Shown one piece after another: positions 2,863 to 62,358 of a DNA stretch of 64,000 bases. The DNA lies in NCBI GenBank assembly GCA_964016885.1, contig OZ024742.1, forward strand, positions 190,402,001 to 190,466,000, written 5' to 3'. The position numbers and the translations under genes were made by a program. Each line of letters begins with the position of its first letter. Within the stretch, counting starts at the first letter, position 1. The notes below the pieces were generated by a model that was given only the letters and a program-made list of their open reading frames with translations, was not told the origin of the DNA and ran no database searches. Origin of the DNA: Eledone cirrhosa. Lineage: Eukaryota.

Positions 2863-3449
2863 TAATTCGCTTAAAAATATTTCTTAAGTAATTAAAATAT
2901 AAAACAAATATGTCTCTCTTTCAATCTACTCTCTCACAACCACTATCTCTTTCTCTCTATCTTTCACTCTCTCTATTTATGAAGGTACCGGAAAACTCCC
3001 TTTTTATGAAGGTATCTGAACCCGTACTTCGATTTACGCGAAACTCGTTTTATTCCATTTGTATTTCAGGGGCAATTTCCTTTCAAAGTATTTTCCTATT
3101 TTGTTTTGGCTGTATTAAATTACAGACAAGCACACAATCACAGTTGTAGTAGTATATTGATAGATAGATAAATTCAAAATAAATAAACACCACCAAAAGC
3201 ACTACCACACTACTACCACCACCACCACCACACTAATACAAAGACCACCACACCATCACCACCCTCAGCCACTACATATTTTAAACTCCTGTCAATTAAT
3301 TAAACAAAAGCACAACACCAACAAAAAGCGCCCCCCCCCACACACACACACAGCCGAAGGGTTCAAAAGGTGATGTAGGAGATGGAGAACTTTGTCGTTC
3401 TTTACAGAAGATAAAAAAACATTTGTTGTTTCAAAGTAAAACATATTTT

Positions 3450-10395: not shown

Positions 10396-10977
10396 AACAA
10401 ATATTGTTATACTTGGGGAGGGTCATATTGTTGTAATAATATTACCAGAAATGATAACAGAACATAATCACTGTTTGGTTGGTTTTCGCTTCTGTATCTT
10501 TTATATCTCCACAGTTAATTCATTCGGTCCTCAATATTTACCATTGACTGACCAACGGTCAAAAATACAGATATAATATAGATATAAACACATATATATA
10601 GTCTAACAAAGTTCTTTCGTTGGACTTTCTGCAACATGATCAGTGATACTATTATGTTCCTCCTGTTGTATTGTATATCTACGCCAGAAAAAATGGCGTA
10701 GATATACAATACAACAGGAGGAACATAATAGTATCACTGATCATGTTGCAGATGTGCAACGAAAGAATTTTGTTAGACTATATATATGTGTTTATATCTA
10801 TATTATATCTGTATTTTTGACCGTTGGTCAGTCAATGGTAAATATTGAGGACCGAATGAATTAACTGTCGAGATATAAAAGATACAGAAGCGAAAACCAA
10901 CCAAAGAGTGAGTGTGTTCTGTTATCATTTTTGGCAATACTATTACAACAATATGACCCTCCTCAAGTATAACAATA
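10396..10977. mobile_element. Fold-back inverted repeat of repeat family E (arms ~290 bp, 7-nt loop)
   Basis: Apex tctacgcca-gaaaaaa-tggcgtaga. Single-arm copies at 17952-18230 and 22629-22860. An HHR-like 3' half (GAAAcaaatattgTT) lies at the left end. Confidence 0.8.
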
Positions 10978-33237: not shown

Positions 33238-33982
<745 letters not shown>

Positions 33983-34812: not shown

Positions 34813-34857
34813 TCGACATATACATATACATACATACATACCCCCCCCCCCCCCCCT

Positions 34858-37110
34858 GAAAAACCGAAAATAATTAACATTTCAAATACAAACCTCTCAG
34901 CCCAACATGTAAAAATTCTCTCCAAAGGTCTGAAATTCACACCAACACCACAATACCCTAACCCCAACGAGATAAATGACGATATCTCACACTTCTGTAG
35001 AAAATTACGTCTCACAGAGGAATTCTTTGACAAGGAGAATAACGACGAATCAATTGTACGGAATAAAAGCAGCTACAACCCAACAAAAGGTAGAAACAGA
35101 GTTCTGGACAAATTTTGTGACCACATAGCTACCTTCCCATACCATGAACTACCGCAACCTAAACCCAAACCCAACACAAGTCGAAGGGAATGGGAGATTA
35201 TCCATGAACTAAAAAACAATACGGACATTGTAATTAAGGAAGCGGACAAGGGAAGTACTGTTGTCATTATGGAGGCTGAAAAATATAAAAATTCTATGTT
35301 CTCTCTCTTACAAAATGCTAATTACTATGAAAGAGTAAAAAACTACCAGCAATCAAAAATAATGACCAAATTAAACACACTGATTTATCGATACCAGGAA
35401 GACCTAACTAAAAATGAACGCGATTATTTAACAAATTTTGAATACAAAACCAGCAACCTTTACGGACTTCCGAAGATCCACAAATGTAAAATAATCAACG
35501 ATGCCTGTAAACAATCCACCTCTACCTGCGTGAACACACAATACCCCACAGACCTTAAATTAAGACCAATTTTAGCGGGCCCACAATGTGAAACACACAG
35601 ATTGAGCAACTTTATAGACATACTACTGAAACCAATACTGAAACACATACCAAGCCTTGTAAGAGACGATCTGGACCTCTTAAACCACCTCCCCAAACAT
35701 GTCAACAACGACACTATTATTGTGTCTTTCGATGTAGTGAATCTCTAGACAACGATCCCACACCAATACGGACTAGAAGCAATAGGATTCTGGCTAGAGA
35801 AATATCCCAATGAGATACCTGACAGAATAGAAAAAAGCTTCATCACCGAGGGATTAAAATTCATCCTACAGAACAACTTTTTTGATTTCGATGGCAATAC
35901 TTACAAGCAAATATCGGGGACTGCGATGGGCACAAAAGCCGCTCCAACTTATGCCAACTTAGTCATGGCATACTTAGAAGTCCAGATATATGAACAGTCC
36001 AAATCAAAATACGGATTGAACTTCCACAAATATTTATCAGAGAATTGGAAACGCTACTTGGATGATTGCCTCATTCTTTGGTCCCACACACTCGACCAAC
36101 TGAAGGATTTCAAAAACTTAATAAACGGCATCAATAACCACATCCAATTCACAATGGAATACAGCCAAGATCAACTCCCATTTCTGGACATCTTAATCAC
36201 AAAAAAAGACACAAATATCGAAACTGACATACACTACAAACCAACAGATTCCAAACAATATCTGCTATTCACCTCCAACCATCCAAAGCACACGAAGACG
36301 AACATTCCTTTTAACCTAGCAAGAAGAATTTGCACAATTGTCTCCAATTATGAAACGCGAAATAAAAGACTTCAAGAATTAAAGGAAATTCTACTTGAGA
36401 GAGAGTACCCACTATTACTAATAAATAATGGAATAGAAAGGGCTAAAGCAATAGGCATTGATGAATTACGGAAACAGAAACAAATTCAAGGTACGTCCAA
36501 TATTCTATCATATATCTCAACACACAACCCAAGAAATGCGGAAGCTTACAACACTATTCACAATAACATCCCACTACCAAAACAAACCCCAAGAATGAAA
36601 AAAGCCCTTGAAACACACAAAATAATCAAAAGCAAAAGACAACCAAAATCACTGAAAACATTACTCACCAATGCCAAATTACCTACCACAAACCCACAAC
36701 CAAGTATCAAAAAATGTGGTCGCTCTAATTGTGGAACCTGCACTCACCTCATTGAAGGCAACACGTATACATTTAAATCAGGACAAAATTTTACTGTAAA
36801 AAATCACTTCACTTGCTCATCAAAAAATCTAATTTATGCCATTAAATGTAAAGGATGCAATGAAGATTATATAGGACAAACTAAATTCACACTCAGAAAC
36901 AGAATGACAGTTCATCGCGAACAATTACGAGATCCAACCACGAGACAGATACCACTAAGTGCACATCTAGACATTTGCGCAAGTAATAAGACACCCAAAT
37001 TCCAAGTCTTCCCATTTTACCTTTGCGCTAACAATACAACAGAACAAATGCGAATAAATAAGGAAAATATGTTTATTCAAAAATATAGACCAACATTAAA
37101 TAAGGTTTAA
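34858..37110 (+). pseudogene. Penelope-like element ORF (RT + Zn linker + GIY-YIG), Naiad-like, one in-frame TAG at 35746
   Basis: IINIS..LSKGLKFTPTP, IKEADKGS, LYGLPKIHK + ~24-aa insert + RPIL, SFDVVNL*, GTAMGTKAAP, RYLDD, CGRSNCGTC, LIYAIKC..C.EDYIGQT. The 413-aa and 394-aa ORFs are in the same frame. Confidence 0.95.
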
Positions 37111-37664: not shown

Positions 37665-38174
37665 GCACACAAATAAACATACATATCTTCAGTCTCAATA
37701 GAAAATCTGAACTCTGACACCCCGGCGAGCTGGCCATATTCACTGAACCAGAACATTTCTCCCAATCCCTTTTCTCTTGACCACTATCTCTCCATTGTCA
37801 TAACATTCACTATAAAGACTACAGAATAGTTTTCCAAATAAGGGCGCAAAAATGTAATAAAAACTTGTTCATGTGACAGCCAAATTTCATTTATTACCAA
37901 CCAAAAAAAAGCCTTCGTGAGCCTCCTTTTTTCAAGTAAAAAGAAATTCAAACACTCATATATGAAAAAACAACCTGTGACAACCCCCCACCCTCTCTTA
38001 TTTGAAGAACTATTGTAACGCGAACTGGCGCGAAATTTATTATAATTATTGATAAACCAATCAAATTACTTCTCGAAAAACCTGGAATTTCGAGCCACTT
38101 TTTCCATATAAAACAAGTAACATTCAGAGACCAACCAGATGTGAGAAAAACCACAGACCCTCCATCTCAACTCA

Positions 38175-38212
38175 CCTTTTGAAAAGCAGAAGAACTGCGA
38201 AACCGGTAAAGG
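38175..38212 (+). ncRNA. Minimal hammerhead with U3:A8 variant core
   Basis: cctt-TTGAAAA-gcag aagaa ctgc-GAAA-ccgg-TA-aagg, then AATAAA. Confidence 0.75.
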
Positions 38213-38343
38213 AACCAAATAAATATATATATTTAAAAAAAAAAAAAGACTTCAGTTGCATTTTCGATTTCATCTCTTTTTCTTTATACTTTCACTCGTG
38301 TAGGACACCTCGGTTATTTTTCATTTTGTAAAAAAAACCTCAC

Positions 38344-38386
<43 letters not shown>

Positions 38387-38393
38387 TATATAT

Positions 38394-39120
38394 ATATAAA
38401 TTAGCGAGAATCGCATTTCGGCTATTGGAAATTAGCGAAAAACAACTTCCGAGATGTGTGGCAAGCCCTCCATAGAAACGAGTCAACTAGAGCAACAACA
38501 TACGTTAAAAGGCCCAAAACACTGAGATGATGGTTAAACCATCATCCGCAAAGCCATAGAAACGACCAAGCTATTCGGGTCAAACAAATAATAAAATATG
38601 ATTGAAAATTATACCCGGACCCCCGGAAACGGTGGTAAAATCCAATATGGCGTTTCTGCAACTCCTCAATCAGGTACTGTCTGCTTAAACAAATAATGTT
38701 AAGCTTTTGGTATGATGATCGAACAAGGAAGTCACTTTTTCAACAGGCATTTAGTTCTATGCAAAGCTAAGGGACTGATCGTTATCTGAACCCACATGGG
38801 GGGTTAGAAGGAAGACAACCTCTAGTCTTGGCGGATGAATTCAGTATGTGTGGTTATTGCAAAATTGCAAAATATCACAAAACGAATTAAGCTCTCAACA
38901 GAATAGTTTTTAAAATTAACATAAGCTATTAATCAGTCAATAGAATTAACTAAAAAAATCAAAAACATTAACTGGTTAATAGCTAGACTCTGGAGATTAA
39001 TACAAAATATAAATTAGAGAGAATCGCATTTCGGCTATTGGAAATTAGCGAAAAACAACTTCCGAGATGTGTGGCAAGCGCTTTATAGAAACAAGTGAAC
39101 TAGAGCAACAATATACGTTT
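38394..39120. mobile_element. (TA)n-flanked ~612-bp unit with ~115-bp terminal direct repeat
   Basis: 38396-38507 is repeated at 39009-39119 with few mismatches; no ORF. Confidence 0.6.
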
Positions 39121-53956: not shown

Positions 53957-54880
53957 ATATCTTTAAGTCGTTTGGAAGCCTCGACAATGCAAATGGGTAA
54001 ATCTCCGGGTAACAAGGTCCGGTGGTGGAGAGAGAGATGTAAGTGGGTGTACGTTGAGATGCGTGGTGTGTATAAGATGTGTGAGATGTGTAGAATGAAG
54101 GGAAGAGTATAAAGGATAAAAATAAAAATAACAACACAAGAGAGAGTTACCTTGGGAGAGATTTAATAGTCCCTATATATTTCGGATTCACATCCATCAA
54201 CTGGGTTTTTTTTCCGGGGTGGGGGAAAAGGTTGTCTGTCGGACAAGTCCGGAACGTGTCTTTTGCTGTTTGTTGTTTTGAATATCTGAGGTATTCGGCA
54301 GAGCGCGCGTGCGCGTGAAATGGGGTCGGTCGTACAGAGGTCAGCGGCCGAATGAGGGAGTGGGATGGCGCTAGCTGTCAGTCCATTCTCTGCCTGTTTT
54401 TTAAATGTTACTGTGTGTGTGTGTGCGTGTGTTGTTGCCTTCTTCATCTGTATTGGCAGTGTAGTATGTTCGTATGGTGGAATGCTACTGTGTGTGCGTG
54501 TGTGTGTGTAGTTGTCTCGTTTGCGTGTGTGTGTGTGTGCGTGTGTTGTGTGTTGTTGCATCGCTTGTTAACTTAAACCAGCCATTTCATTTCGCTTCTC
54601 TCTGATCGGTTGTTTATTTGCGGTTGCAGTCGTTTGATAAAAAGCGCTTCCTTGATACGTAACGTGCCGACGTTTCTTTCAGTCGCTAGAATTGTGACAA
54701 TGGGCCTTCCGTCTTTGTTTCCGCATTTGTCCATGTGTTTCCGGAAAGACGAGGCCCTGGTTTTAGTGTGTTCCTTGATCCGGATGTGTAAAGGTCGAAT
54801 TGTGCTACCTATGTAGTATTGGTTGCACCTGTCACATTCTATCTTATACACGACGTATGTGCGTAGGCAACAGTTAGCAT
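53957..54880 (-). mobile_element. PLE family D, longest copy
   Basis: Shared 3' UTR plus the GIY-YIG coding segment. Confidence 0.9.
54573..54880 (-). pseudogene. PLE GIY-YIG endonuclease domain, 5'-truncated
   Basis: VVYKIECDRCNQYYIGSTIRPLHIRIKEH...HMDKC...LRIKEALFIKRLQPQIN. Confidence 0.9.
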
Positions 54881-55794: not shown

Positions 55795-56187
55795 ATGGTG
55801 GCTGCCAACTCGTACGGCCACTACTTTATATCCATGTAGGAGAACCCCTACCGATGCGCTGAACGAGTGTGACTTTTTAGTCCAGCCAGCGACTTGAAAA
55901 CTCTGGTACAAACACTACACTTGTGATAATTATTGACCATAGTGCTGGGCCCATGGTACCATGTGACGACAAGTGCAGAGAGATCTCCAGATAAAAATCA
56001 ATGCCTGTGTCGTGAAGCTTTTATAGTGAGCAAAGGCACTGCACAAAGCCAGTCCCACTTTCTTAACCAAGATGATATTTACCAAAAAGAAGAACAAGTC
56101 AACATCATTGAATACCATTAGGTTTGCAGGTGTTATATCAGAGTTTTCCTTCTCCTAGAATTCTGCCTTGACAAAGGCTAAGGGGTC
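55795..56187 (-). mobile_element. RTE-related non-autonomous element, sister family
   Basis: Shares caatgcctgtg.cgtgaag, aaaagaagaa.a.tcaacatca and ccttctcctagaa motifs with 34192-34812. Confidence 0.55.
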
Positions 56188-56195
56188 ATCTCTCC

Positions 56196-56249
<54 letters not shown>

Positions 56250-56364
56250 GGAGAGATGACCCCTTAGCCTTTTTCATATATATATATATATGTAGGAGGT
56301 GAGTTTTATTGTAGTACAATAAAGCAATATCTTTAGTAAAATATCTATAGTAAAATATTTAACA

Positions 56365-56865: not shown

Positions 56866-57283
56866 CACACACACACATATATATATATATATTGTACATA
56901 TATAGTTACATACACACATGCACACACGTAGATAGACAGATAGACACACACATCCATATATGTCATATATATGTGATAAATATATGTTACAAAGAGTAAC
57001 GTATAAAACCTCTAGCTATAACAATGTGTTAATTAGGAATAATGTTTGTGAGAAACTAGATTATATGGCGTACACCCTACCATCCCTATATTACTTGTGA
57101 ATGAGTAAGCGAAAAGTAAACCGGTTTATCCCATTCTTCTAAAAAACAAATCATACACAAAACACCAGCACCAACAGTTTTGCAAGAGATGTCAATATGA
57201 ATGGACCTATTCTTTTTATCTAAAGACATTTTTTCCAATTCCATCCCGCCCGTCTCCTTAATCTATTTTACTTCTCATTCTTT

Positions 57284-57318
57284 CTTCTGATGAAGGACTA
57301 GAGTCAGAAACGTTAAGA
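57284..57318 (+). ncRNA. Minimal hammerhead with weak stem I, in PLE-like tail 57185-57404
   Basis: ctt-CTGATGA-aggac taga gtca-GAAA-cgt-TA-ag. Confidence 0.6.
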
Positions 57319-57459: not shown

Positions 57460-57548
<89 letters not shown>

Positions 57549-57551
<3 letters not shown>

Positions 57552-57740
57552 AGAAAATGAGTTTTTTTTACAAAATGAAAAAATAAGAGATTTCCTACAC
57601 CAGTGAAAGTATAAGGAAAAAAAATGAAATTGAAAATGCAACTGCAGTCTTTTAAAAAATATTTATTTGGTTCCCTTACCGGTTTTGCATTTCTTGGGCT
57701 TTTCAAAAGTAGAATTGAGATGGAAGTGTTGTGGTTTTTA
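57549..57740 (-). mobile_element. 3' terminal fragment of the Naiad-like PLE
   Basis: Aligns with 38145-38350; retains the TTGAAAA core and ccggTA. Confidence 0.85.
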
Positions 57741-62313: not shown

Positions 62314-62358
62314 ATTAGCCAACAATGTTTCGTCCTATTAAGGACTCATCAGGGCAAT
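62314..62358 (-). ncRNA. Minimal type I hammerhead
   Basis: attgcc-CTGATGA-gtcct taat aggac-GAAA-cattg-TT-ggc, then AATAAA. Confidence 0.88.

What the first reader, a model, noticed from the sequence alone, without database searches (positions are those of the whole stretch)
38175..38212. Natural U3:A8 compensatory hammerhead (UUGAAAA)
All three stems, GAAA and the GUA site are perfect, but the core is UUGAAAA. Established: C3 and G8 form a Watson-Crick pair in the active fold, and U3-A8 swaps can retain activity. The double change recurs in the diverged copy at 57673-57709 and partly at 3370, so it is a family trait that CUGANGA searches would miss.
Basis: partly seen in the sequence, partly recalled or inferred. 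Interest (0 to 1): 0.75.

Follow-up and report, generated by a model that had tools for sequence, protein, structure and literature searches.

The report
Known U3:A8 hammerhead in Penelope retrotransposon
This is a small hammerhead-shaped RNA motif carried by thousands of copies of a Penelope-like jumping gene; its swapped U3:A8 core pair is real and shared by the whole family, it likely cuts RNA only weakly and as a pair of copies, and this kind of swap has been in print since 2011-2014, so it is a new example of a known thing.

Summary
The motif is real. It is a type I minimal hammerhead at 38175-38212 with a UUGAAAA core, in the terminal repeat of a Penelope-like element (RT + GIY-YIG). U3:A8 is a family trait: of 13,143 genomic matches, none has canonical C3:G8. 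Sister families in this genome keep U3:A8 while helices I and II change in compensating fashion. In foreign Penelope loci, 25 of 25 coding-strand hammerheads pair positions 3 and 8 (C:G, U:A, A:U, G:C).

It is not new. Natural U3:A8 was reported in 2011. A Penelope hammerhead with the same UUGAAAA core was reported in Schistosoma in 2014. This scan has also noted the same kind of motif in other genomes.

The two in-window supports are weak: the 57.7 kb copy is decayed, and the 3370 match is at chance level and has C at position 8.

Genomic copies show no pile-up of ends at the cut site, so uncut RNA was likely the main template. Cleavage itself is untested. Verdict: new member of a known kind, low interest.

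The parts
38175..38212 (+). Type I minimal hammerhead motif (helix I 4 bp, helix II 4 bp, short palindromic helix III)
   Evidence: covariation across families
38179..38185 (+). Core box UUGAAAA: U3 at 38179 and A8 at 38184 in place of C3 and G8
   Evidence: family counts
38202..38207 (+). Palindrome ACCGGU (A15.1 to U16.1), predicted to form a 6-bp helix III between two copies
   Evidence: dimer minimum-energy fold; palindrome kept with changed letters in relatives
38208..38208 (+). A17, the predicted cleavage-site base (cut would fall between 38208 and 38209); predicted to pair with U3
   Evidence: position by hammerhead numbering
34857..37110 (+). 5'-truncated Penelope-like ORF (RT, Cys-rich linker, GIY-YIG), broken by a stop codon at 35746-35748
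   Evidence: the full-length relative L091 has about 400 more N-terminal codons
37111..38288 (+). 3' non-coding region / pseudo-LTR that holds the hammerhead; its 3' part also lies upstream of the ORF in tandem copies (5' boundary of the repeat not defined)
   Evidence: L091, L092, L093; 38288 is a recurring 3' end of copies
38289..38356 (+). Optional 'tail' present on one arm of many insertions, followed by (TA)n target sequence
   Evidence: read as a tail by analogy with PMC11167929
38134..38147 (+). Commonest 5' boundary of short genomic copies (inferred RNA 5' end or transcription start, about 70 nt before the cut site)
   Evidence: 13 of 30 arms sampled by a downstream anchor
57519..57739 (-). 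Decayed solo copy of the same repeat; hammerhead remnant at 57673-57709 keeps U3/A8 but has lost G12 and half of helix II

Best explanation
The motif sits in the terminal repeat of a very abundant Penelope-like retrotransposon family and is likely a genuine, weakly active minimal hammerhead ribozyme of the already described U3:A8 subtype. Shown: the anatomy, the position about 1.1 kb after the ORF and about 180 nt before the start codon in tandem copies, the near-fixation of U3:A8 in the family, and compensating changes in helices I and II and at 3:8 across relatives. Inferred: U3 and A8 form the core Watson-Crick pair as C3 and G8 do. Helix III is too short for a monomer, so two copies would pair through ACCGGU into a double hammerhead and cut after A17, trimming tandem or read-through transcripts, probably slowly and perhaps with help from the element's protein. 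A predicted U3-A17 pair would slow it further. Most new insertions were likely copied from uncut RNA, starting inside the repeat and running to an RNA 5' end near 38136, which would explain thousands of short copies that carry an intact hammerhead. This particular insertion is a dead element (truncated, with a stop codon).
For: 0 of 13,143 family matches have C3:G8; the 59 with C3 keep A8, and 58 have U3 with a non-A at 8. 11,586 carry the full U3/A8/A17 30-mer. On 10 hand-picked family representatives, 95% of cells pair and 10 of 12 pairs change on both sides; 0 of 500 shuffles reach this, and slid controls pair 31-41%. In 87 foreign loci, 25 of 25 coding-strand hits (22 loci) are Watson-Crick at 3:8 although the descriptor left both free: 19 C:G, 4 U:A, 1 A:U, 1 G:C; shuffles gave 2.0 hits in all. 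The predicted dimer fold is the double hammerhead. RT and GIY-YIG domains. Tandem pLTR-ORF-pLTR copy L091. Literature: U3:A8 natural and active in vitro (PMC3088659, section read); about 1,300 U3-A8 min-HHRs and weak dimer-dependent cleavage of a Schistosoma min-HHR (PMC4209133); protein-assisted cleavage and uncut RNA as main template (PMC11167929).
Against: No cleavage assay exists for this sequence. Near-fixation within the family reflects recent copying, not selection; only between-family covariation argues for selection, and those rows were hand-picked and share ancestry. Helix I is only 2-3 bp in the sister families and in the older subfamily. No loop 1/loop 2 tertiary contact is evident. 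Genomic 5' ends show no peak at the cut site (6 of 52 truncations at 38209, 5-7 at each neighbouring position), so there is no in vivo footprint of cleavage. U3-A17 pairing is predicted with probability 0.56 in the monomer.
Confidence: 0.8

Rival explanations
1. Self-locked hammerhead: in this family U3 pairs with A17 and extends helix I, so the RNA is practically inactive on its own and is switched on only by protein binding, or not at all.
For: Monomer and dimer minimum-energy folds both contain U3-A17 (dimer -20.3 versus -18.9 kcal/mol without it). The analogous C3-G17 pair is the published explanation for poor activity of G17 minimal hammerheads (PMC3884650, passages). None of the 25 foreign coding-strand hits has a Watson-Crick 3-17 combination, nor does the published Schistosoma UUGAAAA motif, which has U17.
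Against: The predicted gain is only about 0.7 kcal/mol per site. The sister family with U3:A8 and C17 also shows no 5' ends at its cut site (0 of 30), so the missing footprint is not specific to A17. A17 recurs in several sister families with covarying stems, which suggests the fold still works.
Confidence: 0.12
2. The fold is kept for something other than cutting, such as RNA dimerisation through the palindrome or a binding site for the element's protein, and catalysis is vestigial.
For: No cut-site footprint in either family. In a lizard Penelope element, ribozyme mutants did not affect insertion in vitro, and no RNA reads ended at the cut site (PMC11167929). Naiad elements proliferate without canonical hammerheads (PMC8557442, passages).
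Against: The 3:8 pair belongs to the catalytically active fold (PMC3884650) and is kept as a Watson-Crick pair through several switches on the RT tree. A purely structural role would not obviously need that.
Confidence: 0.07
3. Chance look-alike or assembly error in an AT-rich repeat.
For: Weak folding energy (z -0.94) and no Rfam hammerhead match.
Against: Strict descriptor hit seen once in 30 shuffles. Thousands of identical copies. No other letter at 38179 or 38184 reached 10% in contigs of four public runs. Covariation. Same position as hammerheads in other Penelope elements.
Confidence: 0.01

Closest known systems
U3-A8 minimal hammerheads of Cercyon Penelope-like elements, Schistosoma mansoni (Cervera and De la Pena 2014, PMC4209133)
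   Same: Type I minimal hammerhead in a Penelope terminal repeat; U3-A8 covariation; the supplement's S. mansoni(4) row has the same seven core letters; palindromic helix III; thousands of mostly solo copies.
   Different: Here there is no extra base before helix II, helix II is 4 bp, and helix III has a 2-nt palindromic insert. Position 17 is A (U in the Schistosoma row). The host is probably an octopus, and there are about ten times more copies.
Metazoan PLE hammerheads with a small palindromic helix III (Drosophila, shrimp, Saccoglossus rows of PMC4209133 supplement)
   Same: Short helices, palindromic insert in helix III, predicted dimer-dependent activity; some lack the extra base before helix II and have A17.
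   Different: Those rows have the C3:G8 core.
Natural U3:A8 hammerheads (Perreault et al. 2011, PMC3088659)
   Same: Same compensatory core change, described there as natural and as already shown active in vitro.
   Different: Not tied there to Penelope elements in the passages read; combination with A17 not mentioned in them.
Poseidon element PAc of Anolis carolinensis (Frangieh et al. 2024, PMC11167929)
   Same: Hammerhead at the repeat/ORF junction; two 3' ends giving an optional tail; AT-rich targets; no sign of RNA ends at the cut site.
   Different: PAc has C3:G8 and its hammerhead overlaps the start codon. This element has the Cys-rich linker that Penelope/Poseidon lack, and its hammerhead lies about 180 nt before the start codon.

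Membership tests
Hammerhead ribozyme (type I) | Three helices around the core, ends closing in helix I | tested here: met
   helix III only 2 bp as a monomer
Hammerhead ribozyme (type I) | Core U4 G5 A6, A9, G12 A13 A14, A15.1-U16.1, H17 | tested here: met
   invariant columns (partly fixed by the search patterns)
Hammerhead ribozyme (type I) | Canonical C3 and G8 letters (CUGANGA) | tested here: not met
   U3/A8; 0 C3:G8 of 13,143
Hammerhead ribozyme (type I) | Watson-Crick pair between positions 3 and 8 | tested here: met
   U:A here; 25 of 25 foreign coding-strand hits pair at 3:8
Hammerhead ribozyme (type I) | Compensatory changes in helices I and II among relatives | tested here: met
   all 4 pairs of each helix change on both sides
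Hammerhead ribozyme (type I) | Match to an Rfam hammerhead model | tested here: not met
   no hammerhead family among 7 matches at E<=10 in 38100-38300
Hammerhead ribozyme (type I) | Site-specific self-cleavage | not testable with these tools
   needs an assay; the indirect genomic footprint was negative
Minimal hammerheads of Penelope-like elements | Located in the pLTR, repeated on both sides of the ORF in tandem copies | tested here: met
   L091, L092, L093
Minimal hammerheads of Penelope-like elements | Short palindromic helix III allowing a dimer | tested here: met
   ACCGGU; dimer fold; palindrome covaries
Minimal hammerheads of Penelope-like elements | Extra base between A9 and G10.1 (common, not universal) | tested here: not met
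   absent here and in the closest relatives L160, L163, L240; also absent in two published rows
Endonuclease-positive Penelope-like element | Single ORF with RT and C-terminal GIY-YIG carrying two cysteines between GIY and YIG | tested here: met
   (RVT_1 28.8 bits, just under its 29.6 cut-off; GIY-YIG above cut-off)
Endonuclease-positive Penelope-like element | Partial tandems, inverted 5'-truncated arms, optional tail | tested here: met
Neptune or Nematis clade | CX2-5CxxC zinc-finger linker between RT and endonuclease | tested here: met
   CX4CxxC in the translation; criterion from PMC8557442
Neptune or Nematis clade | RT groups with named clade references | not tested
   no named reference elements were in the tree

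The most novel reading that the evidence does not exclude
In this family the U3:A8 swap, combined with A at the cleavage site, builds a lock into the ribozyme: U3 pairs with A17 instead of A8 and holds the RNA uncut until the element's own protein or a dimer partner releases it. This would let uncut RNA serve as template and would help explain why this family is about five times more abundant than its C17 sister. It would be a natural, selected use of the 3-17 trap so far described for engineered G17 variants.
Probability: 0.12. Interest if true: 0.5.

Novelty: new member of a known kind. Interest (0 to 1): 0.2.

Why it matters
As a variant it matters little, because U3:A8 Penelope hammerheads are published. 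Practically, more than 13,000 hammerhead motifs in this genome are invisible to CUGANGA descriptors and were not matched by Rfam, so ribozyme counts are underestimates. The sister families (U3:A8 with A17, C17 or U17) are a ready natural series for measuring how positions 3, 8 and 17 interact. The 5'-end data add genomic support to the in vitro view that Penelope elements insert mostly from uncut RNA, which leaves the purpose of their hammerheads open.

Tried and rejected
Rfam: no hammerhead model matched the motif region; the window-wide search was swamped by microsatellite matches and only 150 of 447 were listed. A weak MALAT1 model match (E 3.5) was rejected as chance.

Cleavage footprint: 100 of 465 matches to a junction pattern were classified. 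48 were indels and were dropped; the 52 truncations showed no peak at 38209. The automatic sorting of indel versus truncation is imperfect for a few rows. One anchor-sampled arm (L110) starts exactly at 38209, but that is 1 of 30. The C17 sister family gave 0 of 30, so the idea that A17 explains the missing footprint was not supported.

Expression: no RNA holder listed. The gap at 38208-38251 in laid contigs is the tool's repeat skipping, not cleavage.

The 3370 'copy' was rejected. Single origin of U3:A8 in this genome could not be shown (support 48); no one-clade test was run.

Papers not held: Lunse et al. 2017, Przybilski and Hammann 2007, Nelson and Uhlenbeck 2008a,b. They may already cover 3:8 swaps, position 17 effects or cephalopod examples.

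Full report
Observation. The window reads, at 38175-38212 on the + strand, helix I 5' arm, core UUGAAAA, helix II (GCAG/CUGC, 5-nt loop), GAAA, the palindrome ACCGGU, A17 and the helix I 3' arm. A descriptor that left positions 3 and 8 free found 3 loose hits in the window. This was the only strict one, and 30 shuffled windows gave 1 strict hit in all. Rfam gave no hammerhead match in 38100-38300 at E<=10. The copy at 57673-57709 belongs to the same repeat (84% over 237 bp) and keeps U3/A8, but G12 is lost and helix II has 2 of 4 pairs. The 3370 match scores 33, equalled or beaten by 5 other tiles of 838, and has C at position 8, so I do not count it.

Context. The motif lies about 1.1 kb after an ORF remnant (34857-37110, stop at 35746-48) with a C-terminal GIY-YIG domain. 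The window comes from a 3.0 Gb genome. The closest named protein among the 120 listed of 2,477 hits is an Octopus bimaculoides protein at 75% identity, so the host is probably an octopus (inference). Locus L091 holds a full-length copy: an inverted arm, the repeat with the hammerhead about 180 nt before the start codon, the ORF (RVT_1 and GIY-YIG) and the repeat again. Copies end at two recurring places, 38288 and about 38356, often as inverted pairs in (TA)n. This is the partial-tandem, inverted-arm, optional-tail layout described for Penelope-like elements (PMC8557442, passages; PMC11167929, parts 1-2 of 4). The CX4CxxC linker points to the Neptune or Nematis groups rather than Penelope/Poseidon; I did not test this with named references.

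Family trait. In the 30 best-matching loci, 44 of 45 alignments covered the motif, and all 44 had UUGAAAA (selected by similarity). A pattern that left 3, 7 and 8 free gave 13,143 exact matches, with 0 for the reversed control. Of these, 59 have C3 with a purine at 8, and all 59 are C3 with A8, so none is canonical. 58 have U3 with another base at 8 (27 G, 19 C, 12 U by my hand count). Purines at 3 with A8, and C3 with a pyrimidine at 8, were not counted. 11,586 carry the full 30-mer with U3, A8 and A17. The rare single changes look like mutation after insertion; this uniformity shows recent copying, not selection.

Covariation. Patterns that did not require pairing inside helix II or in helix I returned sister families with different stems and the same U3:A8 (528 matches, first 100 listed; 2,585 matches with a base other than A at 17, first 100 listed). 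Three are linked to ORFs 51-58% identical to this one. On 10 hand-picked representatives (7 from this genome, 3 foreign), 95% of cells pair and 10 of 12 pairs change on both sides; 0 of 500 shuffles reach this, and slid controls pair 31-41%. The three foreign rows were chosen by a pairing descriptor, and relatedness is not corrected. Among 87 foreign loci encoding relatives, the descriptor gave 28 hits. 25 lie on the coding strand in 22 loci, all Watson-Crick at 3:8 (19 C:G, 4 U:A, 1 A:U, 1 G:C). 3 lie on the other strand (U:A, U.U, C.A), close to the 2.0 expected from shuffles. On an RT tree of 27 rows (23 foreign loci with a hammerhead hit, 4 from this genome), the non-C:G states are scattered, so several switches are needed. 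Whether this genome's families share one origin is unresolved (support 48).

How it likely works. Helix III has 2 bp as a monomer. The predicted best fold of two copies is the double hammerhead with a 6-bp helix III, as proposed and weakly shown for metazoan Penelope hammerheads (PMC4209133, parts 1-2 of 4; review section PMC6765202). U3:A8 should replace C3:G8 in the active fold (PMC3884650, passages; PMC3088659, section 8 and passages). Both the monomer and dimer folds also pair U3 with A17 (probability 0.56 in the monomer; -20.3 versus -18.9 kcal/mol in the dimer). This mirrors the C3-G17 pair blamed for poor activity of G17 minimal hammerheads. None of the 25 foreign hits has a Watson-Crick 3-17 combination. 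This is a prediction only.

Is cleavage recorded in the genome? Apparently not. Of 30 arms sampled by an anchor downstream of the cut site, 25 begin upstream of it, 13 of them at 38134-38147, and 1 begins at 38209. A targeted junction search gave 465 matches. Of the 100 examined, 48 were indels, and the 52 truncations were spread without a peak (6 at 38209; 5-7 at each other position from 38206 to 38211). The C17 sister family likewise had 0 of 30 arms starting at its cut site, which counts against the U3-A17 pair as the reason. The simplest reading is that uncut RNA with a 5' end near 38136 is the main template and that reverse transcription starts inside the repeat, as shown in vitro for the Anolis element.

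Comparison with what is known. Perreault 2011 reported natural U3:A8. Cervera and De la Pena 2014 reported U3-A8 in Penelope hammerheads of Schistosoma, about 1,300 hits, found only after their descriptor missed it. Their supplement (file 2, one search and part 2 of 3 read; file 1 not searchable) lists a Penelope row with the same UUGAAAA core. Searches turned up no paper on a cephalopod U3:A8 family or on a U3-A17 pair (search listings; a 2026 preprint on animal retrozymes had no hit for the terms tried, and its supplements are closed). Four relevant papers were not held, so absence is not established. Earlier notes of this scan describe the same kind of motif in other genomes with the same verdict; I saw them after reaching my reading.

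Verdict. Real, family-wide and supported by covariation, but a new member of a published kind. Cleavage is untested. The remaining interest is the predicted U3-A17 lock and the natural A17/C17/U17 series. Interest 0.2.

Noticed in passing
L202:1969 (+) and L206:117 (+): Penelope-linked hammerheads with A3:U8 and G3:C8 cores, each with good helices. Single contigs; natural purine-3 cores were not seen in the passages I read.
   Followed up: partly
L170:2216, L205:8 and 2650, L240:2161: Further U3:A8 Penelope hammerheads in unrelated samples, on separate branches of the RT tree, all with U or C at 17. L240 and neighbours are filed in bacterial genome bins and are probably animal contamination.
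   Followed up: partly
L319-L367; L311-L317: Sister Penelope families in this genome with U3:A8 and C17, U17 or A17; the C17 family has about 2,000 copies and only a 2-bp helix I.
   Followed up: partly
window 62318-62355 (-): Canonical CUGAUGA type I hammerhead with a 4-5 bp helix II and possible extended helix I; family not determined.
   Followed up: no
window 57283-57318 (+): Degenerate canonical-core minimal hammerhead (C11.1 lost), 350 bp from the decayed U3:A8 copy; an intact look-alike lies at L313:4396.
   Followed up: no
window near 10737 (+) and 18176 (-): Two related hammerhead-like motifs with a 6-7 bp helix II but weak helix I; likely another decayed family.
   Followed up: no
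window 33401-33730 and 56179-56266: Long perfect inverted repeats (148 bp at 33492-33639 and more; 88 bp around (TA)n), the first repeated elsewhere in the genome.
   Followed up: no
window 54612-54869 (-): Distant GIY-YIG fragment, 29% identical to this element's endonuclease.
   Followed up: no
window 38394-38506 and 39007-39119: 94% direct repeat right after the element's tail; probably a different repeat.
   Followed up: no
L062; G000:C1:350295754: Two sister-family copies with U3 and G8 (wobble), possible intermediates or mutations.
   Followed up: no
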